From NCBI RefSeq assembly GCF_037042905.1, contig NC_087245.1, positions 23,128,001 to 23,192,000 on the forward strand: DNA of 64,000 nucleotides. The letters are read 5' to 3'. How positions within the stretch are numbered: position 1 is the stretch's first letter; each line of letters opens with the position of its first letter. A program made the translations under genes and the position numbers. The notes below the pieces were generated by a model. That model was not told the DNA's origin. It worked only from the letters and a program-made list of their open reading frames with translations, and did no database searches. The stretch is from Lytechinus pictus. Lineage: Eukaryota. Of the stretch, positions 1-47,993 are shown piece by piece.

Positions 1-3000
1 GAATGAAAATGTGATTATCTTTAGAGTGATCGTTCCCCCGACCCCGCCACTTAAAGCACATTCGCTCCGTCCCTGAATGGTTTCAAAACAATAAAGGTGG
101 CTTTACTGCAGAGCAGAAGCTCATTTTTTTTGCCTCAATAGGGGCTCCATAGTAGCAGATTTTTCCCATAAATACGCAAAATAAAAAAATGGGGTGGGTG
201 ACCTCGGCAGTTGTCAGAGAAAGAACAGAAGTTATTGGCTGGTGAAACTATTTACTGCAAATGGAATCATCATTAAGGTTATCTTACCCCAACTCCACCA
301 CTTGAAATACCCACGATCCGCCCCTGAATGAAATGTTCAAACAAAGTACATTAAAAGATAATAAGCATTTAATTTTGTGTTTGTTTTTATAGTAAGTGAC
401 AGCGGTAACAGCGGTAAGTAGTTTGAAAGTGCAATTGATCTAAAAATCGGCACAAATTGGCCCCTCCATCTTCTGCGAATTAGTTTCATAATCGAAAATC
501 AAGTGAAGTCAGAGAATAACTATTCAATGAAAATGTGATTATCTTAAGCATGATCGTTCCCCCTACCCCGATACTTGAAGCACACTCGCCCTTATCCCTG
601 AGCGGTTTCCATGACAATAAAAGTGGCTTTACAACATAGTAAAAGCTTGTTTTTTTGCCTCAATAAGGGCTCAATAATGATATTATTTTGGAATGTTTTG
701 TCAAAATCTGTCAAAAATTTGATTTCTTTTAAGTAAAAACGTCATTTGTTCTCACAGCTCTTAAGACATTTTGCCACATATGCCATGTCTAGCTCCCTCA
801 TTTTATTTTTTTGGTGGTGGTGGAGGGGGGGGGGGGGTTGAGTCCCTACATCACTGGTAATGAGTTTGGTTCTGATCAGATTATATCGCCAGTAAATAAG
901 AAACTATTCATTCATGCAATGTTGGATCCCAAAATAGTTTCAAAGAACAGAGGTTATTGGCTGGTGAAACTATTTTTTTTAAGAATAGGAACATCATTAA
1001 GGTTATCTTGCCCAAACTCCTACAAGTGAAATACCCATCATCCGCCCCTGAATGAAATGTTAAAACAATGAACATTTAAAGATATTAAGCATTTTATTAA
1101 TGTTTGTTTTTATAGGCAGTGACAGTGGTAACAGCGGTAAGTAGTATGGAAGTGCAATTGATCTAAAAATCGGCACAAATTGGCCCCTCCATCTTCTTCT
1201 AATTAGTTTCATAATCGAAAATCAAGTGAAGTCAGAGAATAACTATTCAATGAAAATGTGATTATCTTAAGCATGATCGTTCCCCCTACCCCGATACTTG
1301 AAGCACACTCGCCCTTATCCCTGAGCGGTTTCCATGACAATAAAAGTGGCTTTACAATATAGTAAAAGCTTGTTTTTTGCCTCAATAAGGGCACCATAAT
1401 GATATTATTTTTGGAATGTTTTGTCAAAATCTGTCAAAAATTTGATTTCTTTTAAGTAAAAACGTCATTTGTTCTCACAGCTCTTAATACATTTTGCCCA
1501 ATATGCCATGTCTGGCCCCTCATTCTTTTTTTGGTGGTGGTGGGGGGGGGGGGGGGGTTGAATCCCTACATCACTGGTAATGAGTTTGGTTCTGATCAGA
1601 TTATATCGCCAGTAAATAAGAAATTATTCATTCATGCAATTTTGGATCCCAAAGTAGTTTCAAAGAACAGAGGTTATTGGCTGGTGAAACTATTTTTTTA
1701 AAGAATAGGATCATCATTAAGGTTATCTTTAAGATCACCATTAAGGTAATCTTGCCCCAACTCCACCAAGTGAAATACCCACCATCCGCCCCTGAATGAA
1801 ATGTTAAAACAATGTACATTAAAAGATATTAAGCATTTTATTTATGTTTGTTTTTATAGGCAGTGACAGCGGTAAGAGCGGTAAGTAGTTTGGAAGTGCA
1901 ATTGGTTTAAAAATCGGCACAAAATGACCCCCTCAACTTCAGCTAATTACTCTCATGATGAAACAAATTAAAAAAAATAATAGAATATCAAGTGGAGTCG
2001 GATTATAGTTATTGAATGAAAATGTGATTATCTTTAGAGTGATCGTTCCCCCGACCCCGCCACTTAAAGCACATTCGCTCCGTCCCTGAATGGTTTCAAA
2101 ACAATAAAGGTGGCTTTACTGCAGAGCAGAAGCTCATTTTTTTTGCCTCAATAGGGGCTCCATAGTAGCAGATTTTTCCCATAAATACGCAAAATAAAAA
2201 AATGGGGTGGGTGACCTCGGCAGTTGTCAGAGAAAGAACAGAAGTTATTGGCTGGTGAAACTATTTACTGCAAATGGAATCATCATTAAGGTTATCTTAC
2301 CCCAACTCCACCACTTGAAATACCCACGATCCGCCCCTGAATGAAATGTTCAAACAAAGTACATTAAAAGATAATAAGCATTTAATTTTGTGTTTGTTTT
2401 TATAGTAAGTGACAGCGGTAACAGCGGTAAGTAGTTTGAAAGTGCAATTGATCTAAAAATCGGCACAAATTGGCCCCTCCATCTTCTGCTAATTAGTTTC
2501 ATAATCGAAAATCAAGTGAAGTCAGAGAATAACTATTCAATGAAAATGTGATTATCTTAAGCATGATCGTTCCCCCTACCCCGATACTTGAAGCACACTC
2601 GCCCTTATCCCTGAGCGGTTTCCATGACAATAAAAGTGGCTTTACAACATAGTAAAAGCTTGTTTTTTTGCCTCAATAAGGGCTCCATAATGATATTATT
2701 TTGGAATGTTTTGTCAAAATCTGTCAAAAATTTGATTTCTTTTAAGTAAAAACGTCATTTGTTCTCACAGCTCTTAAGACATTTTGCCACATATGCCATG
2801 TCTAGCTCCCTCATTTTATTTTTTTGGTGGTGGTGGAGGGGGGGGGGGGTTGAGTCCCTACATCACTGGTAATGAGTTTGGTTCTGATCAGATTATATCG
2901 CCAGTAAATAAGAAATTATTCATTCATGCAATGTTGGATCCCAAAATAGTTTCAAAGAACAGAGGTTATTGGCTGGTGAAACTATTTTTTTAAGAATAGG

Positions 3001-6000
3001 ATCATCATTAAGGTTATCTTGCCCGAACTCCTCCGAGTGAAATACCCACCATCCGCCCCTGAATGAAATGTTAAAACAATGTACATTAAAAGATATTAAG
3101 CATTTTATTTATGTTTGTTTTTATAGGCAGTGACAGCGGTAAGAGCGGTAAGTAGTTTGGAAGTGCAATTGGTTTAAAAATCGGCACAAAATGACCCCCT
3201 CAACTTCAGCTAATTACTCTCATGATGAAACAAATTAAAAAAAATAATAGAATATCAAGTGGAGTCGGATTATAGTTATTGAATGAAAATGTGATTATCT
3301 TTAGAGTGATCGTTCCCCCGACCCCGCCACTTAAAGCACATTCGCTCCGTCCCTGAATGGTTTCAAAACAATAAAGGTGGCTTTACTGCAGAGCAGAAGC
3401 TCATTTTTTTTGCCTCAATAGGGGCTCCATAGTAGCAGATTTTTCCCATAAATACGCAAAATAAAAAAATGGGGTGGGTGACCTCGGCAGTTGTCAGAGA
3501 AAGAACAGAAGTTATTGGCTGGTGAAACTATTTACTGCAAATGGAATCATCATTAAGGTTATCTTACCCCAACTCCACCACTTGAAATACCCACGATCCG
3601 CCCCTGAATGAAATGTTCAAACAAAGTACATTAAAAGATAATAAGCATTTAATTTTGTGTTTGTTTTTATAGTAAGTGACAGCGGTAACAGCGGTAAGTA
3701 GTTTGAAAGTGCAATTGATCTAAAAATCGGCACAAATTGGCCCCTCCATCTTCTGCGAATTAGTTTCATAATCGAAAATCAAGTGAAGTCAGAGAATAAC
3801 TATTCAATGAAAATGTGATTATCTTAAGCATGATCGTTCCCCCTACCCCGATACTTGAAGCACACTCGCCCTTATCCCTGAGCGGTTTCCATGACAATAA
3901 AAGTGGCTTTACAACATAGTAAAAGCTTGTTTTTTTGCCTCAATAAGGGCTCAATAATGATATTATTTTGGAATGTTTTGTCAAAATCTGTCAAAAATTT
4001 GATTTCTTTTAAGTAAAAACGTCATTTGTTCTCACAGCTCTTAAGACATTTTGCCACATATGCCATGTCTAGCTCCCTCATTTTATTTTTTTGGTGGTGG
4101 TGGAGGGGGGGGGGGGGGGTTGAGTCCCTACATCACTTGTAATGAGTTTGGTTCTGATCAGATTATATCGCCAGTAAATAAGAAATTATTCATTCATGCA
4201 ATGTTGGATCCCAAAATAGTTTCAAAGAACAGAGGTTATTGGCTGGTGAAACTATTTTTTTAAGAATAGGATCATCATTAAGGTTATCTTGCCCGAACTC
4301 CTCCGAGTGAAATACCACCAACCGCCCCTGAATGAAATGTTAAAACAATGTACATTTAAAGATATTAAGCATTTTATTAATGTTTGTTTTATAGGCAGTG
4401 ACAGCGGTAACAGCGGTAAGTAGTATGGAAGTGCAATTGATCTAAAAATCGGCACAAATTAGCCCCTCCATCTTCTGCTAATTAGTTTCATAATCGAAAA
4501 TCAAGTGAAGTCAGAGAATAACTATTCAATGAAAATGTGACTATCTTAAGCATGATCGTTCCCCCTACCCCGATTCTTGAAGCACACTCGCCCTTATCCC
4601 TGAGCGGTTTCCATGACAATAAAAGTGGCTTTACAACATAGTAAAAGCTTGTTTTTTGCCTCAATAAGGGCTCCATAATTATATTATTTTTGGAATGTTT
4701 TGTCAAAATCTGTCAAAAATTTGATTTCTTTTAAGTAAAAACGTCATTTGTTCTCACAGCTCTTAAGACATTTTGCCACATATGCCATGTCTAGCCCCCT
4801 CATTCTTTTTTTTTTTTTGGTAATGGTGGAGGGGGGGGGGTTGAGTCCCTACATCACTGGTAATGAGTTTGGTTCTGATCAGATTATATCGCCAGTAAAT
4901 AAGAAATTATTCATTCATGCAATGTTGGATCCCAAAATAGTTTCAAAGAACAGAGGTTATTGGCTGGTGAAACTATTTTTTTAAGAATAGGAACATCATT
5001 AAGGTTATCTTGCCCGAACTCCTCCAAGTGAAATACCCACCATCCGCCCCTGAATGAAATGTTAAAACAATGTACATTTAAAGATATTAAGCATTTGATT
5101 AATTTTTGTTTTTATAGGCAGTGATAGTGGTAACAGCGGTAAGTAGTATGGAAGTGCAATTGATCTAAAAATCGGCACAAATTGGCCCCTCCATCTTCTG
5201 CTAATTAGTTTCATTATCGAAAATCAAGTGAAGTCAGAGAATAACTATTCAATGAAAATGTGATTATCTTAAGCATGATCGTTCCCCCTACCCCGATACT
5301 TGAAGCACACTCGCCCTTATCCCTGAGCGGTTTCCATGACAATAAAAGTGGCTTTACAACATAGTAAAAGCTTGTTTTTTGCCTCAATAAGGGCTCCATA
5401 ATGATATTATTTTTGGAATGTTTTGTCAAAATCTGTCAAAAATTTGATTTCTTTTAAGTAAAAACGTCATTTGTTCTCACAGCTCTTAAGACATTTTGCC
5501 CAATATGCCATGTCTGGCCCCTCATTCTTTTGTTGGTGGTGGTGGAGGGTGGGGGGGGGGGGGAAATCCCTACATCACTGGTAATGAGTTTGGTTCTGAT
5601 CAGATTATATCGCCAGTAAATAAGAAATTATTCATTCATGCAATGTTGGATCCCAAAATAGTTTCAAAGAACAGAGGTTATTGGCTGGTGAAACTATTTT
5701 TTTAAGAATAGGAACATCATTAAGGTTATCTTGCCCGAACTCCTCCAAGTGAAATACCCATCATCCGCCCCTGAATGAAATGTTAAAACAATGTACATTT
5801 AAAGATATTAAGCATTTTATTAATGTTTGTTTTTATAGGCAGTGACAGCGGTAACAGCGGTAAGTAGTATGGAAGTGCAATTGATCTAAAAATCGGCACA
5901 AATTGGCCCCTCCATCTTCTGCTAATTAGTTTCATAATCGAAAATCAAGTGAAGTCAGAGAATAACTATTCAATGAAAATGTGATTATCTTAAGCATGAT

Positions 6001-9000
6001 CGTTCCCCCTACCCCGATACTTGAAGCACACTCGCCCTTATCCCTGAGCGGTTTCCATGACAATAAAAGTGGCTTTACAACATAGTAAAAGCTTGTTTTT
6101 TGCCTCAATAAGGGCTCCATAATGATATTATTTTTGGAATGTTTTGTCAAAATCTGTCAAAAATTTGATTTCTTTTAAGTAAAAACGTCATTTGTTCTCA
6201 CAGCTCTTAATACATTTTGCCCAATATGCCATGTCTGGCCCCTCATTCTTTTTTTGGTGGTGGTGGGGGGGGGGGGGTTGAATCCCTACATCACTGGTAA
6301 TGAGTTTGGTTCTGATCAGATTATATCGCCAGTAAATAAGAAATTATTCATTCATGCAATTTTGGATCCCAAAGTAGTTTCAAAGAACAGAGGTTATTGG
6401 CTGGTGAAACTATTTTTTTAAAGAATAGGATCATCATTAAGGTTATCTTTAAGATCACCATTAAGGTAATCTTGCCCCAACTCCACCAAGTGAAATACCC
6501 ACCATCCGCCCCTGAATGATATGTTAAAACAATGTACATTAAAAGATATTAAGCATTTTATTTATGTTTGTTTTTATAGGCAGTGACAGCGGTAAGAGCG
6601 GTAAGTAGTTTGGAAGTGCAATTGGTTTAAAAATCGGCACAAAATGACCCCCTCAACTTCAGCTAATTACTCTCATGATGAAACAAATTAAAAAAAAAAA
6701 TAGAATATCAAGTGGAGTCGGATTATAGTTATTGAATGAAAATGTGATTATCTTTAGAGTGATCGTTCCCCCGACCCCGCTACTTAAAGCACATTCGCTC
6801 CGTCCCTGAATGGTTTCAAAACAATAAAGGTGGCTTTACTGCAGAGCAGAAGCTCATTTTTTTTTTGCCTCAATAGGGGCTCCATAGTAGCAGATTTTTC
6901 CCATAAATACGCAAAATAAAAAAATGGGGTGGGTGACCTCGGCAGTTGTCAGAGAAAGAACAGAAGTTATTGGCTGGTGAAACTATTTACTGCAAATGGA
7001 ATCATCATTAAGGTTATCTTACCCCAACTCCACCACTTGAAATACCCACGATCCGCCCCTGAATGAAATGTTCAAACAAAGTACATTAAAAGATAATAAG
7101 CATTTAATTTTGTGTTTGTTTTTATAGTAAGTGACAGCGGTAACAGCGGTAAGTAGTTTGAAAGTGCAATTGATCTAAAAATCGGCACAAATTGGCCCCT
7201 CCATCTTCCGCTAATTAGTTTCATAATCGAAAATCAAGTGAAGTCAGAGAATAACTATTTTATGAAAATGTGATTATCTTAAGCATGATCGTTCCCCCTA
7301 CCCCGATACTTGAAGCACACTCGCCCTTATCCCTGAGCGGTTTCCATGACAATAAAAGTGGCTTTACAACATAGTAAAAGCTTGTTTTTTTGCCTCAATA
7401 AGGGCTCCATAATGATATTATTTTGGAATGTTTTGTCAAAATCAGTCAAAAATTTGATTTCTTTTAAGTAAAAACGTCATTTGTTCTCACAGCTCTTAAG
7501 ACATTTTGCCACATATGCCATGTCTAGCCCCCTCATTTTATTTTTTTGGTGGTGGTGGAGGGGGGGGGGGTTGAGTCCCTACATCACTGGTAATGAGTTT
7601 GGTTCTGATCAGATTATATCGCCAGTAAATAAGAAATTATTCATTCATGCAATGTTGGATCCCAAAATAGTTTCAAAGAACAGAGGTTATTGGCTGGTGA
7701 AACTATTTTTTTAAGAATAGGATCATCATTAAGGTTATCTTGCCCGAACTCCTCCGAGTGAAATACCACCAACCGCCCCTGAATGAAATGTTAAAACAAT
7801 GTACATTTAAAGATATTAAGCATTTTATTAATGTTTGTTTTATAGGCAGTGACAGCGGTAACAGCGGTAAGTAGTATGGAAGTGCAATTGATCTAAAAAT
7901 CGGCACAAATTAGCCCCTCCATCTTCTGCTAATTAGTTTCATAATCGAAAATCAAGTGAAGTCAGAGAATAACTATTCAATGAAAATGTGACTATCTTAA
8001 GCATTATCGTTCCCCCTACCCCGATACTTGAAGCACACTCGCCCTTATCCCTGAGCGGTTTCCATGACAATAAAAGTGGCTTTACAACATAGTAAAAGCT
8101 TGTTTTTTGCCTCAATAAGGGCTCAATAATTATATTATTTTTGGAATGTTTTGTCAAAATCTGTCAAAAATTTGATTTCTTTTAAGTAAAAACGTCATTT
8201 GTTCTCACAGCTCTTAAGACATTTTGCCACATATGCCATGTCTAGCCCCCTCATTCTTTTTTTTTTTTGGTAATGGTGGAGGAGGGGTTGAGTCCCTACA
8301 TCACTGGTAATGAGTTTGGTTCTGATCAGATTATATCGCCAGTAAATAAGAAATTATTCATTCATGCAATGTTGGATCCCAAAATAGTTTCAAAGAACAG
8401 AGGTTATTGGCTGGTGAAACTATTTTTTTAAGAATAGGAACATCATTAAGGTTATCTTGCCCGAACTCCTCCAAGTGAAATACCCATTATCCGCCCCTGA
8501 ATGAAATGTTAAAACAATGTACATTTAAAGATATTAAGCATTTGATTAATTTTTGTTTTTATAGGCAGTGATAGTGGTAACAGCGGTAAGTAGTATGGAA
8601 GTGCAATTGATCTAAAAATCGGCACAAATTGGCCCCTCCATCTTCTGCTAATTAGTTTCATTATCGAAAATCAAGTGAAGTCAGAGAATAACTATTCAAT
8701 GAAAATGTGATTATCTTAAGCATGATCGTTCCCCCTACCCCGATACTTGAAGCACACTCGCCCTTATCCCTGAGCGGTTTCCATGACAATAAAAGTGGCT
8801 TTACAACATAGTAAAAGCTTGTTTTTTGCCTCAATAAGGGCACCATAATGATATTATTTTTGAATGTTTTGTCAAAATCTGTCAAAAATTTGATTTCTTT
8901 TAAGTAAAAACGTCATTTGTTCTCACAGCTCTTAAGACATTTTGCCACATATGCCATGTCTAGCCCCCTCATTCTTTTTTTTTTTGGTAATGGTGGAGGA

Positions 9001-16810: not shown

Positions 16811-19800
16811 AGGCAAAACAAGAAAAGGGTGGGTGACTTTGTCAGCCCCCTGGGTGGGATAGGCTTTGATTCCCAGCACTTCTTTATAGTAAGCTTATAG
16901 GAAAAAAAATCACCCCCTTTAGCCTCCAAGTATTTTGAAGAAAATTAAAGTGGCTTCAATATATAGCAGAAACACCCCTTGTTTCATGAGGCTCCAAAAT
17001 CTGGAATTTTCCACGAAAAATTGGTGGGTGACCTCAACATAATTGAAAGCGTACTCATTAAAAATTTTCACATTGTGCAAAATAATATTTTTCATGAAAA
17101 ATCAAAGATAGCCGCCAAAATTGCCAATTTTGAAGCCCATGGGACACGATTTGGCAAACGATGGTGTTTTTATCTGCTTATCATCCTATTGATGTTTACA
17201 ACATGAAGCTGATAATCTTGATTTTGTGTTGATTTATATAGGTGATGATAGCAATCCTAGCGCCGACGGTGGTGACGATGGTTAGTATTTCCTACAATGG
17301 AAAATAATGTAAGGTCGGCATTTAAAAAAAAAAAAAAATGAAGGCTGGATACGAAATATGCATCGTAACAAAAAATTAAATGACAAAAAAATTGTTATAA
17401 CTTTAGCTTAAAATCTGGGATAGTGGGTAGCCATAGTGATGGTGGTGATGATGATTATAATAACAATTATTTGAAATAATAGGGATTGTAAGATAAACGA
17501 GTAATACATTTTGAGATCAGTAAAAATAAGTTACCTTTAATGGAATCTTCTCCCTCCCCCATTAGAGTACACCAGCGTCGCCCTAGCCTCTTGTCAAAGC
17601 CCTGATGGCTGCTTTTTGTCAAATGAACAAATAGATATAACGAAAAGGAGTATACATCTCTCAAAAGAAGCAATGGACTATAATTGATCTATTGTCATAT
17701 AGGGTAAAACGGCTCTTACACGTTCAAAGATTTCAACGCGGATCACCGTGGATCTCATTCCTCTTCGATGTTCTAGCTAGTATACCAGGACCAAGGGAAC
17801 GATTTCTTTTTCTACACTGTTAGAAAAATTATCCTTAAAATAAAAGAAGTTCCTGCAGCAGAGTCTCGAGAACACCTGTCATCTTACTAGATTGCGTAAT
17901 CTTACAGGAAATTGGTATTTGGTGTAAGGAACCGTACAAATTTCCTTTAATAAAACACCCTTTTCCCCTTTTTAAACAGACCTGTTCTGTTAAATTGCAG
18001 AAAATTCCTGTTTTATGAATTTACAGAATGATTATCTTATTGATTTCTGCAAAATCTTCTTTTTTCTGTAAAATCAGGGGTTTTTTTAACAGTGTAGGGG
18101 AAGCTGGTTTGGAACAAAAATTTCACAAGTAAAAAAAAAAAGGAGACCATTCCAAAATGAATGTGATTTTGGTCAGGAAAAATTTGAAAAGCAAAATATG
18201 AAAATTAAAAGGGTTTCACTATTAAAGTGAAGGTGATTTTTTTACTGTTTAGCATACCTATCTCATTTCCAGAGTGGGCTTCCCATGGTGAATAACACAC
18301 GAGGCACCCCCCCCCCCGACAAATCTTTGGGGTGCTCTAAAAAACCCCAGCACCCCCTCCCTCCCAGGATCTTGCTAGCTACTCTTTTAACAGAAACAAC
18401 AACAAAAAAAGTGAAAATTAAAAAGGGAAAATAAGTTTGTAAAAATTCAAAGTGGGCACTGTACTAAAATATGTATAACAATCAAACCATCAATGCCTTT
18501 GTCAGTAAATATTAAAACCATCATGGTGCTTTATCGACCTTTCTCATACGCGAAATCAATTTTTTGTAAATAGGATCATTATTAAGGTTATCTTGCCCGA
18601 ACTCCACCAAGTGAAATACCCACCAGCCGCCCCTGAATGAAATGTTAAAACAAAGTATGTTAAAAGATAATAGGCATTTTCTTTATGTTTGTTTTTATAG
18701 GTAGTGACGGCAGTAACAGCGGTAAGTAGTTTGGAAGTGCAATTGATTTAAAAATCGGCACAAAATGACTCCTTCAACTTTTGCTAATTAGTGTCATAAT
18801 CAAACAAATTAATGAAATATAATCGAAAATCAAGTGAAGTCAGAGTACAACTATTCAATGAAAATTTGATTATCTTTAGAGTGATCGTTCCCCCGACACC
18901 GCCGCTTGAAGCACACTCGCTCCGTCTCTGAGTGGTTTCATGACAATAAAAGTGGCTTTACAACATAGCAGAAACTTATTTTTGGGCCTCAATAGGGGCT
19001 CCATAATGATATAATTTTTTGAATATTTTGTCAAAATCTGTCAAAAATTTGATTTCTTTTGATTAAAAACGTCATTTGTTCTCACAGCCCTTTAGACATT
19101 TTGCCCCATATGCCATGTCTAGCCCTCTCATTTTTTTTTGGTGGTGGTGGGGGGGGGGGGTTGATTCCCTACACCACTGGTAATGAGTTTGGTTTGGATC
19201 AGATTTTATCGCCATTAAACAAGATAATATTATTAATTCATGCAGGCAATAGGCAATAAATAGGCAAAACAAGAAAAGGGTGAGTGACTTCGGCAGCCCC
19301 CTGAGTGGGATAGGCTTCGATTTCCCAGCTAATATAAAAAAATCACCCCCTTTAGTCTCCAAGCATTTTGAAGAAAATTAAAGTGGCTTCAATATATAGC
19401 AGAAACGTCCCTTGTCTCATGAGGCTCAAAAATTGAGAATTTTCCAAGAAAAATGGGTGGGTGACTTCAACATAATTGAAAGAGTACTCATTCAAAATGT
19501 TCACATTGTGCAAAGAAAAATATTTCTCATGAAAAATCAAAGATAGCCGCCAAAATTGCCTATTTTGAAGCCCACGGGACACGATTTGGCAAACGATGGT
19601 ATTTTAATCTGCTTGTCATCCTATCGATGATGACAACAGAAGAAGTGTAATGTTTACAACGTAAAGCCGATAATCTTGATTTTGTGTTGATTTGTATAGG
19701 TGATGACAGCAATGCTAGCGTCGACGGTGATGACGATGGTTAGTATTTCCTATACAAGGGAAAATAATGTAAGGTCGGCATTTATAAAAAGGAAAATGAA

Positions 19801-22800
19801 GACTGGATACGAAATATGCATCGTAACAAATTATTAAATGAAAAAGAAAATTGTTATAACTTTAACTTAAAATCTGGGAAAGTGGGTAGCCATAGTGATG
19901 ATGGTGATGATGATAATAATAACAATTATTTGAAATAATAGGGATTGTAAGATAAAAGAGTAATACATTTTGAGATCAGTAAAAATAAGTTACCTTTAAT
20001 GGAATCTTCCCCCTGCCCCATTAGAGTACACCAGCGTCGCCCTAGCCTCTTGTCAAAGCCCTGACGGCTGCTTTTTATCGAATGAACAAATAGATATAAC
20101 GAAAAGGAGTATACATCTCTCAAAAGAAGCGATGGACTTTTGATATATTGTCATATAGGTTAAAATGGCTTTTACACATTCAAAGATTTCAACGCGGATC
20201 ACCGTGGATCGTCATTCCTCTTCGATGTTCTAGCTACCAGGACCAAGGGAACGATTTTAATTTTTTACTAGGGGGTGCTGGTTTGAAAGAAAAAATTCAC
20301 AAGTAAAAAAAAAGGGGGGGGCATTCCAAAATGAAGATTTTGGTCAGGAAAAATTTGAAAAGCAAAATATAAGAAAGGAAAAAGGGTTTCACTATCAAAG
20401 TGAGGTGATTTTTTTACTGTTTAGCATACCTTTCTGATTTCCAGAGTGGGCTTCCCATGGTGAATAACACACGCAGCACCCCCCTCCCCGACAAATCTTT
20501 CGGTGCCTCAAGACCCCCAGCACACCCTCCCTCTATAGCTACTCTCTAATGTAACATAAACAACAATAAGAAAAGTAAAAAGTTTAAGGGGAAAATAAGA
20601 TTTTTTTTAATGTAAATATAGTACCATACAAAATTATTATACAAATTATAGAACTCTTATGAAAACTTGATCAATGGCAGATATGAGATGAAACATGGAA
20701 CACTGACAAATAATCATCCATATGTAACAGGATAAGTCCTCCCCAAAAATATATATATGTTTTTTGTCTCGCATACCAGAGGTGAAGGCGAGACTTAGGG
20801 ATCCAAATGTCGTCCGTCCGTCCGTCACAAACATAACACAGAACTCCGCAACCGTAAGTCGCTTTTCAGCCAAACTTGGACGTAAGATGTAACTAGGGAA
20901 CCTGCATGTTATGCTGCAGTCGGAGGTCACGTGGTAAGGTCAAAGGTCATTTTCATGTCAACGTTAAAGTCTACTTGCAAGACTCTCTTATGACACATAA
21001 CTCTGCAACCGTAAGTCATTATTCACCCAAACTTGGGTTGTACATATACTGAGGAGAACTGCATGTCATGGCGCAATCAGAGGTCACATGGTAAGGTCAA
21101 AGTTCATTTTTAGGTCAATGTTATGACACATAATGGCAACCGTAATTCACTTGTAAATCAAACTTGGGTTGTAGGTGTACTTAGGAGCCCTGCATGTTAT
21201 TGTGTTCGGAGGTCACATGGTAAGCAAGGTCAAAGTTCATTTTGAGGTCAACATTAAAGTTTACAGGCAAGATTTTTGTGAAAAATGTTATTTCATCCTA
21301 GTTATTTCACATTGAAGATTTGTTACAATTCTGTTGCGAGCCCTCGCAAATCACAATATATCTGGTTATGTTTATAAGTGGGTGAGACACAAAATCGCCT
21401 ATGCCTTGTTTAGTTTGCGTTCATCTGCCTATACATATCATTGCCATAATTATATTCATATTTTGATATACATGTACCCTTCTTAATTTAACCAGCTATG
21501 TTTCTCGCTCTTCAGTTTCCCACTGGGGTTGAATCAGAATTACATATGAGTATTACTACTCTCATACTCCTCTCTACTGTCCTCATCTCCCCCCAACCCT
21601 CTTCCCTACTCTATTGTATCTCCTTTTCCCATTTTCTCTACACTCTGGTCTTCCTTTCCTTAATCTGCCAAGTCACCCAAAGTGTTTGTCTTTTTATTTG
21701 TAAATAATATATTTATAATGTTTTATTGCTTTATCATGTTATCATATTATTGTTATATTTTGTAAATCCAATGCAATTCAGCCTAAATGGCTGCGATATG
21801 TGGATATTCTAATAAAAACTTCAAACCTTCAAACCTATAGGCCCTGACGCTGACGCTGGTGACAGTGACGTTGGTGAGTATCTTATTGAAGAGAAATATG
21901 AAAAAAATACTTTCTTAATCAAGAAGAAATAGAGATTAATAATAATGATAGGCATTTATATAGCGCCATCTAACTAGAAATATTCTATTCCGAGGCGCAT
22001 TGTTTATTATTATTATTACCCCGGCTTTAGCTCGAATTGCCTTTCAGCGCTCAGTGCATTCAAGGAATTACTCCTGCCGGGTACCCATTCACCTCACCTG
22101 GGTTGAGTGCAGCTCAATGTGGATAAATGTCTTGCTGAAGGAAATTACGCCATGGCTGGGATTCGAACCCACGACCCTCTGTTTCAAAGTCAGAAGACTA
22201 ATCCACTGGGCCACAACGCTCCACAGGATGAGCATATCCGGTCAATGGCATTTAATTTTGTTTGGTATTACTGCGGAAGTAATAATATACCATAAATTGA
22301 TAATGATAATTGTTTTGGATAAAATGATAAAGATATATGAATTTAAAGAAATCCTTTGTCTAATTTTATAATCACATTGAAAAAAGGCTGATGATATGCA
22401 ACGCACCTGAAGGAATAATGACGGAAAAAGTCAAATACGAATGTACTGCAATGTGATGTTTATATTATATGGTAGCTCCATCATCAGTAAATAATGTTTT
22501 TACGTTGTGCCCTGAATAATATAAAGCAAAATTGGTCTCCATATGATTTTTATTTTTTGGCCTATTCTTGGTTTTGTATATTGGAGTTGATAGTGAAAAT
22601 TGAAGAAGCTGCATGTAAAAATGAGTTTTTATTATGTCTTTTTTTTTCAGCAGTTGCTAATCCACCACCTCCTCCTCGTAAGTTATACTTAAAGATCAAC
22701 TCTACCCAGAATAATGTTGGCTGTAATTAATAGAGCAAAATCAAAGAAGCATAAACGCTGAAAATTTCATAAAAAACGGATGTAAAATAAGAAAATTATG

Positions 22801-24598
22801 ACATTACAAGGTTTCGCTTATTTTTCACAAAACAGTCATGTGCATAAACTCAGTGACATGCAAATGAGAGTCGATGATGTCCCTCACTTACTATTTCTTT
22901 TGGGGGTTTTTATTGTTCGAATTATACAATATTTCAATTGTTAACAAATTTGAGAATAGGGGCCAAAATGACTGAACAAAAAATGTTAAATCACTGCTCT
23001 AGGAGGAATAAAAATTTGTTTTACAGGAAAATGAGGAAAATTAGAATATTTCATACAATAAAATACAAAAGAAATAGTGAGTGTGTGACGTCCTGAAAGC
23101 TCTCACTTGCATACGGACTAGGATGTGCATATTACATCTGATTTTGATGAAATTATCAGTGTTATGCAAATTGGATTTCCCCCATTTTATTCGAATGAAC
23201 TTTTCATTCGGATGGACGTGTCCTTTAACGATATTACAATTTCTATCAAAGTCATGTTTTACTAAATAATATATATAGCCAGTTATCCGTAAAGAGATTC
23301 ATCTGATTGGTAGAACTAAAACAAACAACTTTTCATCTTTTCACAATAAATTTGGATTTTACTTTGTGAGCCTCTGCATACTTGTTTCTGCCACGGAAAT
23401 AACCTGCATGGTTCTTCAGACTAGCGCTTACACGCCGTAGACGGGGGAGTATCGGCAGCGCGACAGTCGGTGAGAATGGGAATGTACCTTGTTCTTCTGG
23501 ATGTGAATGACCTCCCTAATCCACTTTTTGTTTATTTATTGTAATTTCTAGCTAGGATCTGGCTCATATTCCAGTTTATTTTTGTGATTCCTTTGGGTTA
23601 ATGGTCACTAATTGCCGTTTGTCCAGTTTCTCCTAGATTGCAAGGAATTTGGTATATACCAACCTTTTGAGTCATCAGATTCAATAGGGGTGGTATACTG
23701 ACTTCTTTACCATGATTGCAACAAGGTGTATATTGGAGAAACTGCAAGGAAGTTTGGAATAAAGAAGGCTGAAAACAAACAAGAAGCGGAGAGTCTAAGC
23801 AAAGCCCACTTCACAAGATCGAGAAGGGGGGGGGGGTGGGGGAACTGTTAGTGACCATTTAGCCAAAAGAAATCACACAATAAACTGTAATAAGAGCCAG
23901 ACCCGAGGTAGAGATGATAATGAATACACAGTGTGGATTGGGGAGGCCATTCACATCCAAAAGAAACATTCAATGAACAGAGACGCTGGACAATACAAAC
24001 TTTCTACTTATGGACATTTCTATTCTCACGGACTGCCGCGCTACCGATACTACCCCCATCTACGGCGAGTCAGCGCTAGTCTGAAGAAAGCCTGCAGAAC
24101 CGAGAAGGCGAAATCGCACAAAAAATGAAAATCTATTTCATTTTATTTAATATTAGCCAGTGTCTTTTTCATGAAATGTTTTCTGTCAGATCATGATTTG
24201 AAAAAATGGTTACAAAGCTTATTTATTTATGATTTAAATCATTCCTATTCATATAATTGTAAATATACAGAGAAATCATAATGATAAATGTACTATCATT
24301 AATAATGGTAATCGTATATTCATCATTATATTCCCTTAGGTATTAAGGTCTTAACTTTCTATGTTAATGCAAGAGACTCGTTTTTGCTCCTAAATTAACC
24401 AATACGTTTTTGGTATTTGTAAACAGCTCCTGGCCCGGTTGAATGTGCCACAGGTCCACAGTTTATCGGTGCAATCGACCCAGTCAACGGTATCACCATC
24501 TCCTTCACTATTGTCACCGATGCTGATGTTTTCATAGTCGCATTTTCCCCGAAATATACGTATTCTGGCCCTGAAGTCTATCAGATGAGTAAGTATAT

Positions 24599-24644
<46 letters not shown>

Positions 24645-27600
24645 GTGTGGGGATGTGACTGATGTGTGTGTATATTATGAATAAAATAAGTTTTAATTTT
24701 AACGACATTCTCTTTGTACCAATTGCGATTATTTCATTCCTTATAACAGTTTAATATGTGCCGATACTCGCAGTGGTCATGGTGGTCGGGGTGGGGTGCT
24801 TGCTTCGACCTGTTTTTTGCCCAGTACCAACCCAGTTTTGTCAGAATGATGAAATAAATACCAAGGATATGGAATGTGGTATAGCATTTTTGCATTGCAC
24901 TGAAGAGTAGATTCATGTTTACAGTGTTATAGGAAAGTTCCTATGTCCGGAATTGAAAATAGGATCTTCCTTTTATTTGCCGGTGCCGGTGGGGGGGGGG
25001 GGGCAGTGGGCTATGATTCCTCCGTCTACCCCCCCAAAAAAAGCACTATCGCCACTCTTCAGCTTATGGGAGAGGTTACAATAAAAAAAAACCAAACTTG
25101 CAAGCGTGTTCGAATGCTGAGGCGTTAGCGGACGCACAGTAAATTGCCTCTTTTTTTCAATTTCACAGAGCACCGCATCGTCTTGTTTCCAGAAAGGGTA
25201 CTTTTTGTGGTTAATAGCATGAAAGACGAAAAGAGGGGCGCGTTCAATAATCATATGTTATTCTCCAAGTTAACATCCTTGGAACGCTTTCGAAAGAGGG
25301 GGCTGACCAAAAAATCACAATCAGATGGTGATATTTTGGGATTTGGAAAAAATATATTATGGTAGAGTAATCCGTTAGGAATACAATAAAATGGACTGTT
25401 AGATTTAGTAATCGAGAGTGCTTATGCGTCATAACCATGAACGTAAATCCAAATTTGAATTTTAACTTGCACAATATAATTATATAAGGATAAAACAGGC
25501 GCGTAGCCAGGGGGGGCGGTGGGGGCGGTCGCCCCCCCCCCCCCCAAAACGTCCCCAAAAAGAAAAAAAAAGAAGGGAAAAAAGAGAGGAAAAAAGGAAA
25601 AGGGAAGGGAGGAAAGGGAAGAAAGGTAGCTTTGTCGTTTTTTTTTCTTTTTATTCTTTATTTTTTTTTCTCAAAAGAGAAACTCCTTCACTCTTGCTCT
25701 AAATTTATATATGAATTTTGCTTCCGCGCTGCGCGCGGTTAAATGACAATATTGAAGTTCTCCATTGTTTCCTCCACCCTTTCTCTAACCCTTCTTTCCA
25801 CCTCAGCTATATGTGTTTATTGCCAGTTAAAGTTCAAATATATACATTATGGCATGGAATTAGAGTAAGGTTAGGCCGAAGTATATGAAGTTATCTTTTT
25901 TTTTTTGATCGTGCAACTTCTGGTCGGGTCGGCTCCAGGCGGGTAAAATCTTTATATCAATTTCTGCCGTCACCTCCATAAAGTCAACTTCTCCCGCTTT
26001 TCAGCTCTTTACTAAACAACCATAATTTGCGGCAAACAGGTTCCTAATTTAAAAAGAGGAATGTATAAAATTCGTGTCGTATTGAATAAAAAAGTACAAT
26101 ATTTTTTTTCAAATTCTATTAATCTTCATGTTATTTCCCTGCACATTCATCTCCTGTCCTGTTTTGCGCCCTCAGTTTGAAATTTTGAATGACACTCAGG
26201 GGCCGCGGAACGGTTTTCAAAGTGGGGGGCTGACCATGCAAAAAATCACAATCTTATGGTCATTTTTCCGTTTTTGTACACGGTTTTGGAAAAAGTGGGG
26301 GGGGGGGACTGAAGCCCCCCAGCCCCCCCCCCCCGCTTCTGCGGCTCCTGACACTTAGGTTTCTTTATAATTCAAAATGAAGCGCTTCAGGATAAGTCAT
26401 AGAAATTAGGCATCTTTTTTATATAATTTCAATAAATCACTGAAGTTTCAACTTTTTGCGCACTATTTTCCTTGTAATGAAGTTCAATAATCTTAGGAAA
26501 TGAATTGAATTAGAGCCGATGGGGTATTAAAGATATCTGCATTTGATGAAACGTCCGCCCTTTGAAATTTCAGAGTTTTATTGCTCTGCGCGGGGAGGAA
26601 TATCTTCCTCCCGGCATAAACACTTCTTCTCCTCTGTTTTGCGAGTTAAAGATATATGCACTGTCGCTAAATTGTTTGTATTCAAATCTGATCTTTCCAA
26701 GGGAAGTATTCAATATATCTTTGAGAATACCCTTTTCTCGGGACCCTTTTCATGGCAAAAAAATTGATAAAACGCTTTAGCTTCCGCGCTTCGCGCGGGG
26801 TTATTATGATTTTAATTTCCTCCATTGTATTCCTTTTTGTGCGTTCACAATCACTTTTGAAAACAAGGTTCAAAATCACAATATAGTCAACTGAATTGGA
26901 GCTGATATAGGTACTAGAGTCAGAGAGACGGCTCCTTTTTCATTTTAATTTATGAAACACCAAAAGCTTCGCGCTTCGCACGGGAGGGGGAAACTCCCCC
27001 TCCCTGCACCCACCCCCTAGGGAGCGCGCTTCGCGCGCTCTGTAAGTGTTGGCACGCTTCGCGTGCATTTCCCGCCCCCTCCAAAATGAAATCCTGGCTA
27101 CGCGGTTGGGATAAAACGCAAGACGTATCAATGAAGACGACGTCGAATCATGTGTTACAGACTGACAGAGGGAATAGTACTGAGTAAATACACTGTCAGG
27201 GATGATGGAAGGACAAGAAAATCCCTAGGCATTTTTTTTGCCCAAAATAGAAATAAATGGATGATTTTATTACACAATTAAGTCGTCTTGAGTTTTCCAT
27301 GCTTCATTTTTTGCATATTTCTCTTATTTCCCTTCTATTATGCTATCCCTTTTCGATTCCTATCCACTTAGGATCATCTTACTTTGCCAAATCGCTGGGA
27401 AAACGAAATATAACGGAGGCGTGAATTGCCCCCCCCCCCTCCGTGTCTTATGGCTTTTAAATAACTAATTTGATCCTTGAATGATTTGGCTTAATATTCT
27501 GATGTGATGCTGAACATTGCCATTGAGCCTGACATTTCGGCGTATTGTCGAAATCTGGGTTGCAATTTGATTCTTTTTATTTTGTTTGTTGTTCTTAGGG

Positions 27601-28392
27601 CTGAGCACCACCCCGACTGTGGCATCAGTTGTCAACCTCGGATCGAGAGGCGTCTGCGATCCAGTCCCGGAACCGTTCCTTCTAAAGAATACACCCAACC
27701 GGGTGACAGTTACCATCAGCAGGTACAGATGCGACGTCACCAACGGCCGCGGTGCTGTACTCGCCATTAACAGCACCAATGAGAGTGATTTCAGATACAT
27801 CTATGGTTCTTGCGTCAATGGGAACTATTGCGCAATCCGTAAGTCCTAGCATCATATATGACTATGAAGGATGTAAGCATGCAGGGTCATCGGAAGTCCC
27901 GGGAGGGGGGGGGGGTAAAAAGAAGTGTCAATTACCCCCCCCCCATTTCATTTATTTCATTCAAGATAAAAAGAGCCATGTATGACTATATAAATTATCT
28001 TGCTATTAAGGCATAGTGCAGTGACCTGGATCCGTCATCATTTATCTGTTATTATAATCTGTCGCCCTCCTCACCCCACCAACTAACTATAAAAAAGAAG
28101 TGAACACTTTCTTAAGGGGGGGGGGGGGCTGAAAACTGTACCTATAGATATATTCACCAAATTTGTGTACTGAACCCTTCGATCCCACTACCAAAGTTTA
28201 ACAGCGCCCTTATGTTAAGCTTGGTCGCTTCGTTAGAATATCTATACATGTGTTTCCTCATTAGATTATTAGATGGATTACTGAATAATGGAAAGAATAT
28301 AATTTCACATTGTCATTTTGAAGATGTAATAAATCCCTCTCTCCCCTCGCCCTTCTCTCTCTGATCATTCCCCTATAGATTGCTTGGACTAA
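393..28392 (+). CDS. Multi-exon gene (5' part outside window): Ser/Gly/Asp/Asn-rich heptad-repeat protein with poly-Pro linker and C-terminal 6-Cys domain, probably secreted; 33 predicted exons, ~366 aa in window
   Basis: All internal exons are bounded by AG and GT(A/T/G)AGT, have lengths divisible by 3 and are phase 1-1. They splice into one stop-free frame: (G/V)SDSG(N/K)S x24, GEDSSNS, GDDSNPSADGGDD, GSDGSNS, GDDSNASVDGDDD, GPDADAGDSDV, AVANPPPPP, PPGPVECATG...YQM, RLSTTP...NYCAI, HCLD*. Manual prediction without transcript support. Confidence 0.8.
17242..17280 (+). CDS. 39-nt exon, GDDSNPSADGGDD
   Basis: ttgatttatatAG|GTGATGATAGC...GACGATG|GTTAGT; phase 1-1; paralogous to 19700-19738. 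Confidence 0.72.
17815..18094. mobile_element. MITE with TA target-site duplication (Tc1/mariner-type signature)
   Basis: TA|CACTGTTAGAAAAA...TTTTTTTAACAGTG|TA; the paralogous duplicate has the empty site, a single TA at 20269-20270. Confidence 0.88.
18701..18721 (+). CDS. 21-nt microexon, GSDGSNS (diverged heptad copy)
   Basis: gtttttatAG|GTAGTGACGGCAGTAACAGCG|GTAAGT; flanks homologous to the array unit. Confidence 0.78.
19700..19738 (+). CDS. 39-nt exon, GDDSNASVDGDDD
   Basis: ttgatttgtatAG|GTGATGACAGC...GACGATG|GTTAGT; frame and splice sites conserved with 17242-17280. Confidence 0.72.
20762..21410 (+). mobile_element. Non-autonomous Tsp/Helentron(DINE-1)-like element with internal tandem repeats
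   Basis: Subterminal inverted motif GTCTCGC...GCGAGAC, a (GTCC)n microsatellite near 20810, about three 130-155 bp repeats (caaccgtaa...ggtcaaaggtca), 3' GGGTGAGACAC motif and T-rich flanks. Family assignment is by architecture only. Confidence 0.65.
21500..21834 (+). mobile_element. Probable 3' UTR fragment of a non-LTR retroelement
   Basis: Pyrimidine-rich tract, then AATAAA at 21811 and a short repeated tail (cttcaaac)x2; the 5' boundary is uncertain. Confidence 0.35.
21841..21873 (+). CDS. 33-nt exon, GPDADAGDSDV
   Basis: cctatAG|GCCCTGACGCTGACGCTGGTGACAGTGACGTTG|GTGAGT; phase 1-1 with acidic composition like neighbouring exons; weak polypyrimidine tract. Confidence 0.65.
21938..22222 (-). 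mobile_element. tRNA-derived SINE
   Basis: Minus strand begins GGAGCGTTGTGGCCCAGTGG (A box), contains GGTTCGAATCCC (B box) and ends ...GGCGCTATATAAATGCCTATCATTATTATT, an L2-like tail. Confidence 0.85.
22651..22677 (+). CDS. 27-nt poly-proline linker exon, AVANPPPPP (NAGNAG acceptor)
   Basis: ctttttttttcAG|CAGTTGCTAATCCACCACCTCCTCCTC|GTAAGT; strong splice sites; phase 1-1. Confidence 0.78.
22689..23228. mobile_element. ~540-bp TTAA-flanked MITE (Kolobok-like), family A, degenerate
   Basis: TTAA-AGATCAACTCTACCC...GGATGGACGTGTCCT-TTAA; internal similarity to the copies at 40677, 51354 and 58658. Confidence 0.8.
23385..24115 (+). mobile_element. Degraded Penelope-like element: GIY-YIG endonuclease remnant with inverted duplication of its 3' end
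   Basis: From 23687 the + strand reads GVVY*LLYHDCNKVYIGETARKFG, and later WIGEAIHIQKKHSMNRDAGQYKLS. 23385-23615 is a diverged reverse complement of ~23845-24115. Confidence 0.8.
24427..24588 (+). CDS. 162-nt exon, first half of C-terminal domain (PPGPVECATGPQFIGAIDPVNGITISFTIVTDADVFIVAFSPKYTYSGPEVYQM)
   Basis: gtaaacAG|CTCCTGGC...CAGATGA|GTAAGT; open in phase 1; GC-richer than flanks; missed by the ORF track. Confidence 0.8.
24594..24640. repeat. (TA)n microsatellite
   Basis: Directly visible just after the donor site. Confidence 0.95.
25496..27108. mobile_element. 1.6-kb non-autonomous DNA transposon with 8-bp TSD (hAT-like)
   Basis: GGATAAAA|CAGGCGCGTAGCCAGG...CCTGGCTACGCGGTTG|GGATAAAA. 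Confidence 0.88.
26197..26350. mobile_element. Small MITE nested in the 25496-27108 element
   Basis: ACACT|CAGGGGCCGCGGAA...TTCTGCGGCTCCTG|ACACT (apparent 5-bp duplication). Confidence 0.75.
27599..27838 (+). CDS. 240-nt exon, second half of C-terminal domain (RLSTTPTVASVVNLGSRGVCDPVPEPFLLKNTPNRVTVTISRYRCDVTNGRGAVLAINSTNESDFRYIYGSCVNGNYCAI)
   Basis: tttgtttgttgttcttAG|GGCTGAGC...GCAATCC|GTAAGT; lies in ORF 27586-27849; phase 1-1; contains NST and NES sequons. Confidence 0.85.
28379..28392 (+). CDS. Putative terminal coding exon, HCLD-stop
   Basis: Long pyrimidine tract with a CTGAT branch-like motif and ccctatAG|ATTGCTTGGACTAA; supplies the sixth Cys; ATTAAA near 28608 is a possible poly(A) signal. 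Confidence 0.6.
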
Positions 28393-31444: not shown

Positions 31445-31863
31445 CGGTTAATTTCCAATTAGTCTAATGCCAATTCGTCCAATTGCCAACTCGTCTTCTA
31501 TCATTTGGTCGACCGTCAGTTCGTCCATTTACCACGTGGTCTACTTTCATTTAGCTAATGCCATTCCGCCTAATAACCAGTTGGTCCAACGGCCATTTAG
31601 TCCATATACCATTTGGTCTAATTGGACTAAGTGTTAAATTGTGCAAAATGAATGAAAATGAAATGGATATTAGACCAAATGCTTATGAGACGAAATGGTC
31701 ATCGACAAAATGGTGATTAGACGAAGTGATGATTGGACCAAATGGTTAATGGGCCAAATGGTTGTTAGACGAAATGTTGATGGACGGAATGGCGTTAGAC
31801 TAAATGAAATTATCCCATGTGTTGAGCGGACGAGTTGGCAGTAGACGAATTGGCAATTTACCG
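31445..31863. mobile_element. Foldback-like MITE made of short subterminal repeats, 6-bp TSD
   Basis: GGGAGA|CGGTTAATTTCCAATT...AATTGGCAATTTACCG|GGGAGA; left arm (catttggtc/ttcgtcc) units mirror right arm (gaccaaatg/gacgaaatg) units. Confidence 0.8.
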
Positions 31864-47800: not shown

Positions 47801-47993
47801 TCCAACTCGTCAAAGCAAAAACTTACACATTCCTCTTTGCCATTCAACATTACTCTATAATTCTTTATCTTCTGTTGGGGTACGTGAATGGAATAATCTA
47901 AATTTCGATATAAGATCCAGTACTACGATAAATCGATTTAAGTGTCTGTATAAGAAACTTATATTTAGTAAAATGTTTTCCATGGCTGAGTAG
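44827..47993 (+). pseudogene. LINE ORF2 endonuclease/reverse transcriptase with a single frameshift
   Basis: Motifs HLNARSL, VTETW, GGGVALY, CGDFN, SDHFPV (APE) and NYRPIALL, DLSKAFD, GVPQGSVLGP, FADDT (RT). Adding one A to the A9 run at 47305-47313 joins ORF 44827-47343 to ORF 47382-47993 (HKKKKKIPNSIESVKIDNVFIERKQNIFFLGIY). Confidence 0.9.

What the first reader, a model, noticed from the sequence alone, without database searches (positions are those of the whole stretch)
393..28392. Probably uncharacterised extracellular protein: (GSDSGNS)n acidic tract, poly-Pro hinge and 6-Cys domain; candidate biomineral matrix phosphoprotein or proteoglycan
Seen: ~220 aa of almost only G/S/D/N grading into Asp-rich exons, then AVANPPPPPPPGP, then ~135 aa with six Cys and two N-glycosylation sequons. 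Established: Ser-Asp tracts are mineral-binding phosphorylation substrates in vertebrate dentin sialophosphoprotein (FAM20C recognises S-x-E/pS), and Ser-Gly dipeptides near acidic residues are glycosaminoglycan attachment sites. Inference: a convergent SIBLING-like or serglycin-like matrix protein in an invertebrate. The signal peptide is outside the window, so secretion is unproven.
Basis: partly seen in the sequence, partly recalled or inferred. Interest (0 to 1): 0.8.

Follow-up and report, generated by a model that had tools for sequence, protein, structure and literature searches.

The report
Two-headed urchin matrix protein, micro-exon tether
A real, spliced sea-urchin gene builds a long serine/glycine tether from dozens of 21-letter mini-exons and ends in a domain predicted to fold like a sugar-binding lectin; a close relative's version also has a likely export signal and a second such domain, so it is likely a secreted two-headed matrix cross-linker rather than a look-alike of the mineral-binding dentin proteins.

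Summary
33 exons (26 of them 21-nt, all introns phase 1) encode a 220-aa G/S/D/N tract, seven prolines and a six-Cys domain, and assembled RNA joins the last nine exons. The gene is uncharacterised but not an orphan. Lytechinus variegatus XP_041473643 is the full-length orthologue (93% in the domain), with a signal-peptide-like start and a second, paralogous domain before the repeats. S. purpuratus has it annotated in two halves. Both domains resemble the FAMeT module (PF12248; language-model score 0.94-0.95, Pfam HMM negative), known from sea-star adhesive and mollusc shell proteins, and both are predicted to have a galectin/ConA-type beta-sandwich fold, without galectin sugar-binding residues. 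The dentin-like reading weakens. The heptad is neutral in L. variegatus, only 1 of 83 serines fits the FAM20C S-x-E/pS rule, and SIBLING/SCPP features fail. What is conserved is a Ser/Gly-rich heptad tether of variable length between two domains. Best reading: a secreted bivalent matrix cross-linker whose tether possibly carries glycosaminoglycans. Tissue, ligand and modifications are unknown. New variant of a known kind, interest 0.4.

The parts
393..16528 (+). Array of 25 exon+intron units (495-744 bp), each with one 21-nt phase-1 micro-exon encoding a G/V-S-D-S-G-N/K-S-type heptad; cut off by the window's left edge
   Evidence: units 78-100% alike; joints into 15982/16508 in RNA
17242..17280 (+). 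39-nt Asp-rich exon
   Evidence: spliced in RNA
18701..18721 (+). 26th, diverged 21-nt micro-exon
   Evidence: spliced in RNA
19700..19738 (+). second 39-nt Asp-rich exon, in a 1-kb duplicate (19254-20257 vs 16803-17805, 88.7%)
   Evidence: spliced in RNA
21841..21873 (+). 33-nt Asp-rich exon, end of the tether
   Evidence: spliced in RNA
22654..22677 (+). poly-Pro hinge exon; tandem acceptor (alternative start 22651), distal AG used in RNA
   Evidence: both forms among L. variegatus isoforms
24427..24588 (+). 162-nt exon, first half of the FAMeT-like beta-sandwich domain
27599..27838 (+). 240-nt exon, second half of the domain (4 of the 6 Cys, both sequons)
28379..28392 (+). last coding exon (2 Cys-region residues and stop); transcribed 3' UTR continues to at least 28689

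Best explanation
This is a spliced sea-urchin gene whose product is likely a secreted, two-headed extracellular-matrix cross-linker: two paralogous domains predicted to have a lectin-type beta-sandwich fold, which would bind glycans or matrix proteins, joined by a long and likely flexible Ser/Gly tether that would carry sugar chains. Shown here: exon structure, splicing of the last nine exons, the repeat tract, the hinge and the six-Cys domain. Shown in orthologues, inferred for this gene (about 0.9): signal peptide and N-terminal domain. Predicted (about 0.9): disulfide-bonded galectin/ConA-type fold, FAMeT-like. Inferred: each head grips a matrix partner (glycan rather than protein about 0.45), and the tether sets reach and hydration. 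Some D-S-G sites would be xylosylated and carry glycosaminoglycan (about 0.4). Tether length changes fast, by unequal crossing-over between near-identical exon+intron units and by in-frame skipping of symmetric exons, without touching the heads. The tissue is unknown.
For: Gene and splicing. Full architecture in L. variegatus XP_041473643, with an 11-residue hydropathy peak of 2.86 at the N-terminus. S. purpuratus XP_030830775 (signal, N domain, ends in repeats) and XP_030830769-72 (repeats, C domain) share a 29-aa repeat run, consistent with one gene annotated as two. N and C domains are paralogous: 26-29% identity, pairwise BLASTP E 2.6e-9 and 1.8e-15. All six Cys are kept in the S. purpuratus C domain. 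ESM Atlas: top three hits for both domains are PF12248 clusters, scores 0.95 and 0.94. AlphaFold: all-beta, pLDDT 77; best matches galectins, Z 11.5, rmsd 2.5-3.3 A over 118-125 residues. The S. purpuratus N domain (pLDDT 61) matches the same superfamily, Z 11.0-11.3. Conserved across three species: a heptad of 35-41% Ser and 17-25% Gly, but not the charge. All differences among 11 L. variegatus isoforms are in-frame deletions in the tether or hinge. FAMeT domains occur in secreted sea-star adhesive proteins, two each in Sfp7 and Sfp8 (PMC9382459), and in mollusc shell proteins (PMC8194122); enzyme activity was never reliably shown (PMC10015273). An acid before Ser-Gly is the stated glycosaminoglycan consensus (PMC9526814).
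Against: No ligand, modification or tissue was shown. The fold is shared with SPRY, thrombospondin-C, laminin-G and levanase domains, so it does not imply sugar binding. The galectin H-x-N-x-R and W-x-x-E-x-R motifs (recalled) are absent and the C domain has no Trp. Pfam gives no PF12248 hit even at E 10. Only 6 of 27 Ser-Gly sites in L. variegatus have an acid nearby, so dense glycosaminoglycan loading is not conserved either. The sequons are not conserved (one kept in L. variegatus, none at that place in S. purpuratus). The 5' half of this gene was not seen: no genome is held. The one-gene architecture rests on a single automatic L. variegatus model plus the overlap of the two S. purpuratus models.
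Confidence: 0.45

Rival explanations
1. Biomineral matrix phosphoprotein: the Ser/Asp tract is phosphorylated in the Golgi, binds Ca2+ or amorphous calcium carbonate, and the heads anchor it in the skeletal or tooth matrix, like C-type-lectin-plus-repeat spicule proteins or UTMP16.
For: Net charge -37 over the 220 aa seen. The S. purpuratus tether has serine runs ending in S-x-E: 40 of 62 Ser are reachable by the S-x-E/pS rule. Urchin teeth hold Ser/Asp phosphoproteins (UTMP16, PMC2758014; phosphodontin, PMC2830187) and a FAM20C-like protein. FAMeT domains are reported from mollusc shell matrix and shell repair (PMC8194122).
Against: The closest orthologue has an uncharged heptad. Only 1 of 83 Ser here (7 of 83 if S-x-D also seeds) and 2 of 48 in L. 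variegatus fit the FAM20C rule (rule from PMC7948968). Three peptide motifs of the S. purpuratus orthologue were absent from the larval spicule peptide tables, where SM50 and MSP130 were found as controls, and the three motifs searched were absent from the phosphoproteome supplements (no positive control there). This is weak: few peptides tested, the gene may be missing from that database, and the adult tooth and test/spine supplements could not be read.
Confidence: 0.25
2. Component of tube-foot adhesive, cuticle or mucus: FAMeT-like heads plus a disordered Ser/Gly region, as in sea-star footprint proteins.
For: Six sea-star footprint proteins carry FAMeT domains; Sfp7 and Sfp8 have two each plus predicted disorder, and Sfp4b is Ser/Gly-rich (PMC9382459). 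Contig depth varies from 35 to 1637 among four samples of one study, and two RNA runs of another study show almost none, as for a tissue- or stage-restricted product; contig depth is a poor measure and the samples are unnamed.
Against: No EGF, hyalin, WAP or vWF domains (Pfam blank). No sea-star protein among the 7 hits of the exhaustive search. The urchin tube-foot paper names no FAMeT protein in its main text (PMC7037938); its supplement could not be read.
Confidence: 0.15
3. The tether is an unmodified, nearly neutral spacer whose expansion is drift of an unstable tandem array; the function lies only in the two heads, for example as a soluble protein-binding or pattern-recognition factor.
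For: Units are up to 100% alike, with an irregular higher-order pattern, as after recent unequal crossing-over. Heptad sequence, charge and length differ among three species. SPRY-type protein-binding domains match about as well as lectins. PF12248 is paired with DM9-type DUF3421 domains in arthropods (PMC10015273).
Against: All 26 micro-exons keep frame, splice signals and Ser/Gly content. The 7-residue Ser/Gly period is kept between Lytechinus and Strongylocentrotus although the letters changed.
Confidence: 0.13
4. The array is satellite DNA or an assembly artefact, and the repeats are not part of the protein.
For: Units are near-identical; RNA joints inside the first 23 units cannot be placed uniquely, so the number of heptads per message is not shown.
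Against: RNA contigs join micro-exons 15982, 16508 and 18701 to the domain exons in 5 of 5 contig runs; orthologues carry equivalent heptads; units differ by diagnostic changes.
Confidence: 0.02

Closest known systems
L. variegatus XP_041473621-XP_041473723 ('hyphally regulated cell wall protein 1-like', automatic name) and S. purpuratus XP_030830775 (LOC105440177) + XP_030830769-72 ('TPRXL-like', 'SRP40-like')
   Same: Orthologues: C domain 93% and 49% identical, same six Cys, heptad Ser/Gly tether, Pro-rich hinge.
   Different: Names appear to reflect low complexity only; no paper in the library cites the six accessions searched. The heptad is acidic here, neutral in L. variegatus, and mixed acidic/basic with poly-Ser in S. 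purpuratus; the tether is longer here (at least 220 aa against 139).
FAMeT-domain (PF12248) secreted proteins: sea-star footprint proteins Sfp1/3/4a/5/7/8 (PMC9382459, passages and section 2.4 read), mollusc shell proteins (PMC8194122, passages read), crustacean 2x pfam12248 proteins (PMC10015273, passages read)
   Same: Both domains are nearest to PF12248 clusters by language-model features; two-domain layout; extracellular material.
   Different: Below Pfam detection; no EGF, WAP, hyalin or DUF3421 partners; crustacean tandem forms have a linker of about 40 aa, not a micro-exon array.
Tandem-repeat galectins (galectin-4, -8, -9)
   Same: Two beta-sandwich domains of this fold joined by a linker; bivalent cross-linking of glycans is recalled knowledge.
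   Different: 7-17% identity; sugar-binding motif absent; signal peptide and conserved Cys, whereas galectins lack a signal peptide (recalled); much longer linker.
DSPP/SIBLING (SCPP family); urchin UTMP16/P16 and phosphodontin
   Same: Secreted, Ser/Asp-rich repeats; small symmetric exons allowing in-frame splicing (PMC5118209, passage read).
   Different: Phase 1, not phase 0, introns; no RGD; FAM20C rule barely met; folded heads; no transmembrane segment as in UTMP16 (PMC2758014); not the Glu-rich S-x-E repeat of phosphodontin.
Serglycin and Ser-Gly proteoglycan cores
   Same: Many Ser-Gly dipeptides with acids nearby (45 of 45).
   Different: No unbroken (Ser-Gly)n run (serglycin feature recalled); two globular heads; chains not shown.

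Membership tests
SCPP/SIBLING | [quoted passage not shown] | tested here: not met
   All 32 introns are phase 1; feature from PMC5118209.
SCPP/SIBLING | RGD integrin motif (recalled) | tested here: not met
   0 RGD in the window part and in both orthologues.
SCPP/SIBLING | Dense S-x-E/pS FAM20C sites | tested here: not met
   1 of 83 Ser here, 2 of 48 in L. variegatus; but 40 of 62 in the S. purpuratus 3' half.
SCPP/SIBLING | Descent from SPARCL1 | not tested
   No direct comparison; of 7 hits the four credible ones are urchin proteins or an unnamed fragment like them.
Ser-Gly proteoglycan core (serglycin-like) | Ser-Gly sites with nearby acids | tested here: met
   45 of 45 here, 6 of 27 in L. 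variegatus, 11 of 11 in the S. purpuratus 3' half.
Ser-Gly proteoglycan core (serglycin-like) | Unbroken (Ser-Gly)n run (recalled) | tested here: not met
   None in the translation.
Ser-Gly proteoglycan core (serglycin-like) | Glycosaminoglycan chain attached | not testable with these tools
   Needs biochemistry.
FAMeT domain PF12248 | Pfam HMM score above the gathering cut-off | tested here: not met
   No family for the two window exons at E 1 or the full L. variegatus protein at E 10. Hence called FAMeT-like, not filed as a member.
FAMeT domain PF12248 | Language-model features nearest to PF12248 clusters | tested here: met
   0.95 (170 of 256 features) and 0.94 (162); first cluster has PF12248 on 56% of members. 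A lead without E-value; not calibrated for parts of proteins.
FAMeT domain PF12248 | Same fold as a bona fide member | not tested
   No PF12248 member was folded here.
Galectins | Galectin/ConA beta-sandwich fold | tested here: met
   Z 11.5, rmsd 2.5, 118 aligned (2ymz_A); TM 0.52-0.66 for galectin rows; predicted models only.
Galectins | H-x-N-x-R and W-x-x-E-x-R sugar-binding residues (recalled) | tested here: not met
   Neither motif in any of four sequences; no Trp in the C domain.
P16/UTMP16 | C-terminal transmembrane segment | tested here: not met
   Only internal peak is 1.7 (19-residue window), in beta-strands of the model; polar C-terminus; feature from PMC2758014.
Secreted protein | Signal peptide | tested here: inconclusive
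   Outside the window; hydrophobic N-termini in both orthologues by hydropathy only, no SignalP available.

The most novel reading that the evidence does not exclude
An echinoid invention converging on tandem-repeat galectins: two FAMeT-type domains are lectins with a new sugar site, and the micro-exon array is a tunable molecular ruler and glycosaminoglycan brush whose length and charge are set by copy number and exon skipping. That would give the mis-named FAMeT module of shells and adhesives its first function, and a direct test of how low-complexity matrix proteins retune material properties between close species.
Probability: 0.17. Interest if true: 0.72.

Novelty: new variant of a known kind. 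Interest (0 to 1): 0.4.

Why it matters
FAMeT domains recur in sea-star glue and mollusc shell proteins with no known function (PMC9382459, PMC8194122, PMC10015273). Here two very divergent copies are predicted to have a lectin-type fold, which suggests a glycan-array test. The gene is also a clean case of a matrix protein whose spacer changed charge between two closely related urchins while the C domain stayed 93% identical. Practically, it corrects misleading database names and a probably split S. purpuratus model. It is not evidence for an invertebrate SIBLING, and building repeats from duplicated symmetric micro-exons is a known mechanism (recalled).

Tried and rejected
No genome held, so the 5' end could not be read. 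Pfam: no family for either domain exon or the full orthologue. PDB by sequence profile: 0 matches at E 10. Word-index searches found only the L. variegatus cluster or nothing among proteins of 495-2000 aa; weak negatives. Of 7 hits, three (a stink-bug repeat protein, an IMG hypothetical protein, a nematode ETS factor) were dropped as repeat-inflated short matches. No N-domain copy lies in the window (tblastn). The chance control used a wrong acceptor pattern and was redone. Rfam: nothing. Literature: no paper holds any of six accessions; one paper holds farnesoic acid + sea urchin + matrix + proteome; the automatic names occur in none of the 20 papers listed of 1,198; the micro-exon search gave one unrelated paper. 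Supplements of the tooth, test/spine and tube-foot proteomes were unreadable and may hold this protein; one small spine-transcriptome supplement was blank. Methyltransferase activity rejected: no SAM-type glycine motif (motif recalled) and a beta-sandwich fold. No complex prediction was run.


Full report
Observation. The region 393-28392 looks like a satellite but holds a 33-exon open frame on the + strand: 26 exons of 21 nt, then 39, 39, 33, 27/24, 162, 240 and 14 nt, all introns phase 1. It translates to 220 aa of 83 Ser, 52 Gly, 41 Asp and 23 Asn, seven Pro, and a domain of about 136 aa with six Cys and two sequons. The acceptor-21-donor pattern occurs 26 times in the array against a mean of 0.07 in 200 shuffles. 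Seven public runs were laid, of nine listed. All five contig runs (two studies; library type guessed or unknown) show the GT..AG joints from exon 15982 to 28379. In X1-X4 a single 631-nt contig holds acidic exons, hinge and domain, with no mismatch in the two long exons. The joint 24588-27599 is seen from the contig pieces rather than the joint table. The two raw-read RNA runs (about 6% of each read) show no joint. Joints inside the first 23 near-identical units cannot be placed, so the heptad number per message is unknown. RNA uses the distal AG at 22653.

Gene history. The 24 units compared are 495-744 bp and 78-100% alike (mean 89.5%), with an irregular pattern of Val, Lys and plain variants. 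This fits recent unequal crossing-over (inference). The two 39-nt exons sit in an older 1-kb duplicate (88.7%). An earlier unchecked note (e1-8076406) counts at least 19 copies in a 12.2-kb stretch ending at 1880, which would put about 16 more upstream and the total near 42.

Relatives. The 240-nt exon finds L. variegatus XP_041473643 at 91%; the whole domain is 93% identical, so the window is likely from a Lytechinus species (inference). That protein has a hydrophobic N-terminus, a globular domain, a 139-aa heptad tether, the same seven Pro and the same C domain. Eleven isoform sequences differ only by in-frame deletions of 1-32 aa in tether or hinge; these are automatic models. The exhaustive search gave 7 hits: this protein, two S. 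purpuratus clusters, an unnamed 98-aa fragment, and three spurious rows that were dropped. S. purpuratus XP_030830775 has signal and N domain and ends in G-N-G-D-D-S-S repeats. XP_030830769-72 begin with the same repeats and end in the C domain (49% identical, all six Cys). The two share a 29-aa run, consistent with one gene split in annotation. N and C domains are paralogues (26-29%, E 2.6e-9 and 1.8e-15). No credible homologue outside sea urchins was found, at the sensitivity of single-sequence and word-index searches.

The domain. Pfam and the PDB sequence search are blank. The ESM Atlas places both domains next to PF12248 Methyltransf_FA clusters (0.95 and 0.94), with a galectin cluster at 0.85. 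AlphaFold on a 6-row alignment gives an all-beta C domain, pLDDT 77 (the L. variegatus sequence was folded). It matches galectins best (Z 11.5), followed closely by levanase, SPRY, legume-lectin and thrombospondin domains. The S. purpuratus N domain (pLDDT 61) matches the same superfamily (Z 11.0-11.3). Galectin sugar-binding motifs (recalled) are absent. So the fold suggests a binding module but does not name the ligand. In the passages read, FAMeT methyltransferase activity was never reliably shown (PMC10015273). The domain occurs in six sea-star footprint proteins (PMC9382459) and in mollusc shell proteins (PMC8194122), function unknown.

The tether. Ser (35-41%), Gly (17-25%) and the period of seven are conserved; charge is not: -37 in the part seen here, -16 in L. 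variegatus where the heptad itself is neutral, and -3 and -5 in the S. purpuratus halves. By the S-x-E/pS rule (PMC7948968, passages), 1 of 83 serines is reachable here and 2 of 48 in L. variegatus, but 40 of 62 in the S. purpuratus 3' half, so phosphorylation is plausible in that species. Ser-Gly with an acid nearby: 45 of 45 here, 6 of 27 and 11 of 11 in the others; acid-Ser-Gly is the stated glycosaminoglycan consensus (PMC9526814, passages). Neither modification is shown, and neither motif is fully conserved.

Mechanism and rivals. Best reading (0.45): a secreted bivalent cross-linker, two lectin-fold heads on a flexible, length-variable and possibly glycosaminoglycan-bearing tether. Rivals: mineral-binding phosphoprotein (0.25), adhesive or mucus component (0.15), inert spacer with function only in the heads (0.13), artefact (0.02). 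For the mineral reading, three orthologue peptide motifs were absent from the larval spicule peptide tables (PMC2909932 supplements, controls found), and three motifs from the phosphoproteome supplements (PMC2830187, no control). This is weak, and the adult tooth, test/spine and tube-foot supplements could not be read (of PMC2614417 and PMC2527298 only the titles, and for the former the abstract start, were seen). Contig depth ranged from 35 to 1637 in four samples of one study, hinting at regulated expression, but the samples are unnamed and the measure is poor.

Comparison and novelty. Not a SIBLING/SCPP (phase-1 introns against phase 0, PMC5118209 passage; no RGD). Not serglycin, not P16/UTMP16 (no membrane anchor; PMC2758014 abstract and section), not phosphodontin, not a galectin by motif, and not formally PF12248. 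The parts are of known kinds; their combination is in databases only under misleading automatic names, and no paper in the library cites the six accessions searched. Verdict: real gene, new variant of a known kind of secreted FAMeT-like matrix protein, interest 0.4.

Noticed in passing
window 44827-47990 (+): LINE-type retroelement: 838-aa frame with endonuclease and reverse transcriptase (Pfam RVT_1 E 1.4e-33) and an overlapping 230-aa frame, apparently broken by a frameshift; a similar-looking fragment at 51602-52093.
   Followed up: partly
window 1860, 3127, 6580, 10769, 13497 (+): The five Lys-variant micro-exons contain an internal GTAAG donor that would give an in-frame 12-nt exon; some L. 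variegatus isoforms differ by 4 aa. Use in RNA not shown.
   Followed up: partly
RNA contigs laid on 12777-18719: Heptad variants with Arg for the second Ser, and a contig of equal depth in which an exon like 18701 precedes an array exon, are not in the window: probably upstream copies or alleles.
   Followed up: no
S. purpuratus XP_030830775 and XP_030830769-72 (P0020, P0019): Probably one gene annotated as two; the 3' model's hydrophobic start may be intron read-through.
   Followed up: partly
window 56239-56380: Inverted repeat with 71-nt arms, 92% complementary, no loop.
   Followed up: no
window 20771-23572, 25441-27308 and 29470-61260: Dispersed high-copy repeats in the introns (very high depth in all runs) and several repeat families in both orientations downstream.
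   Followed up: no
window 24594-24640 and 31661-31807: (TA)n microsatellite directly behind the 162-nt exon's donor; a 16-bp tandem array downstream.
   Followed up: no
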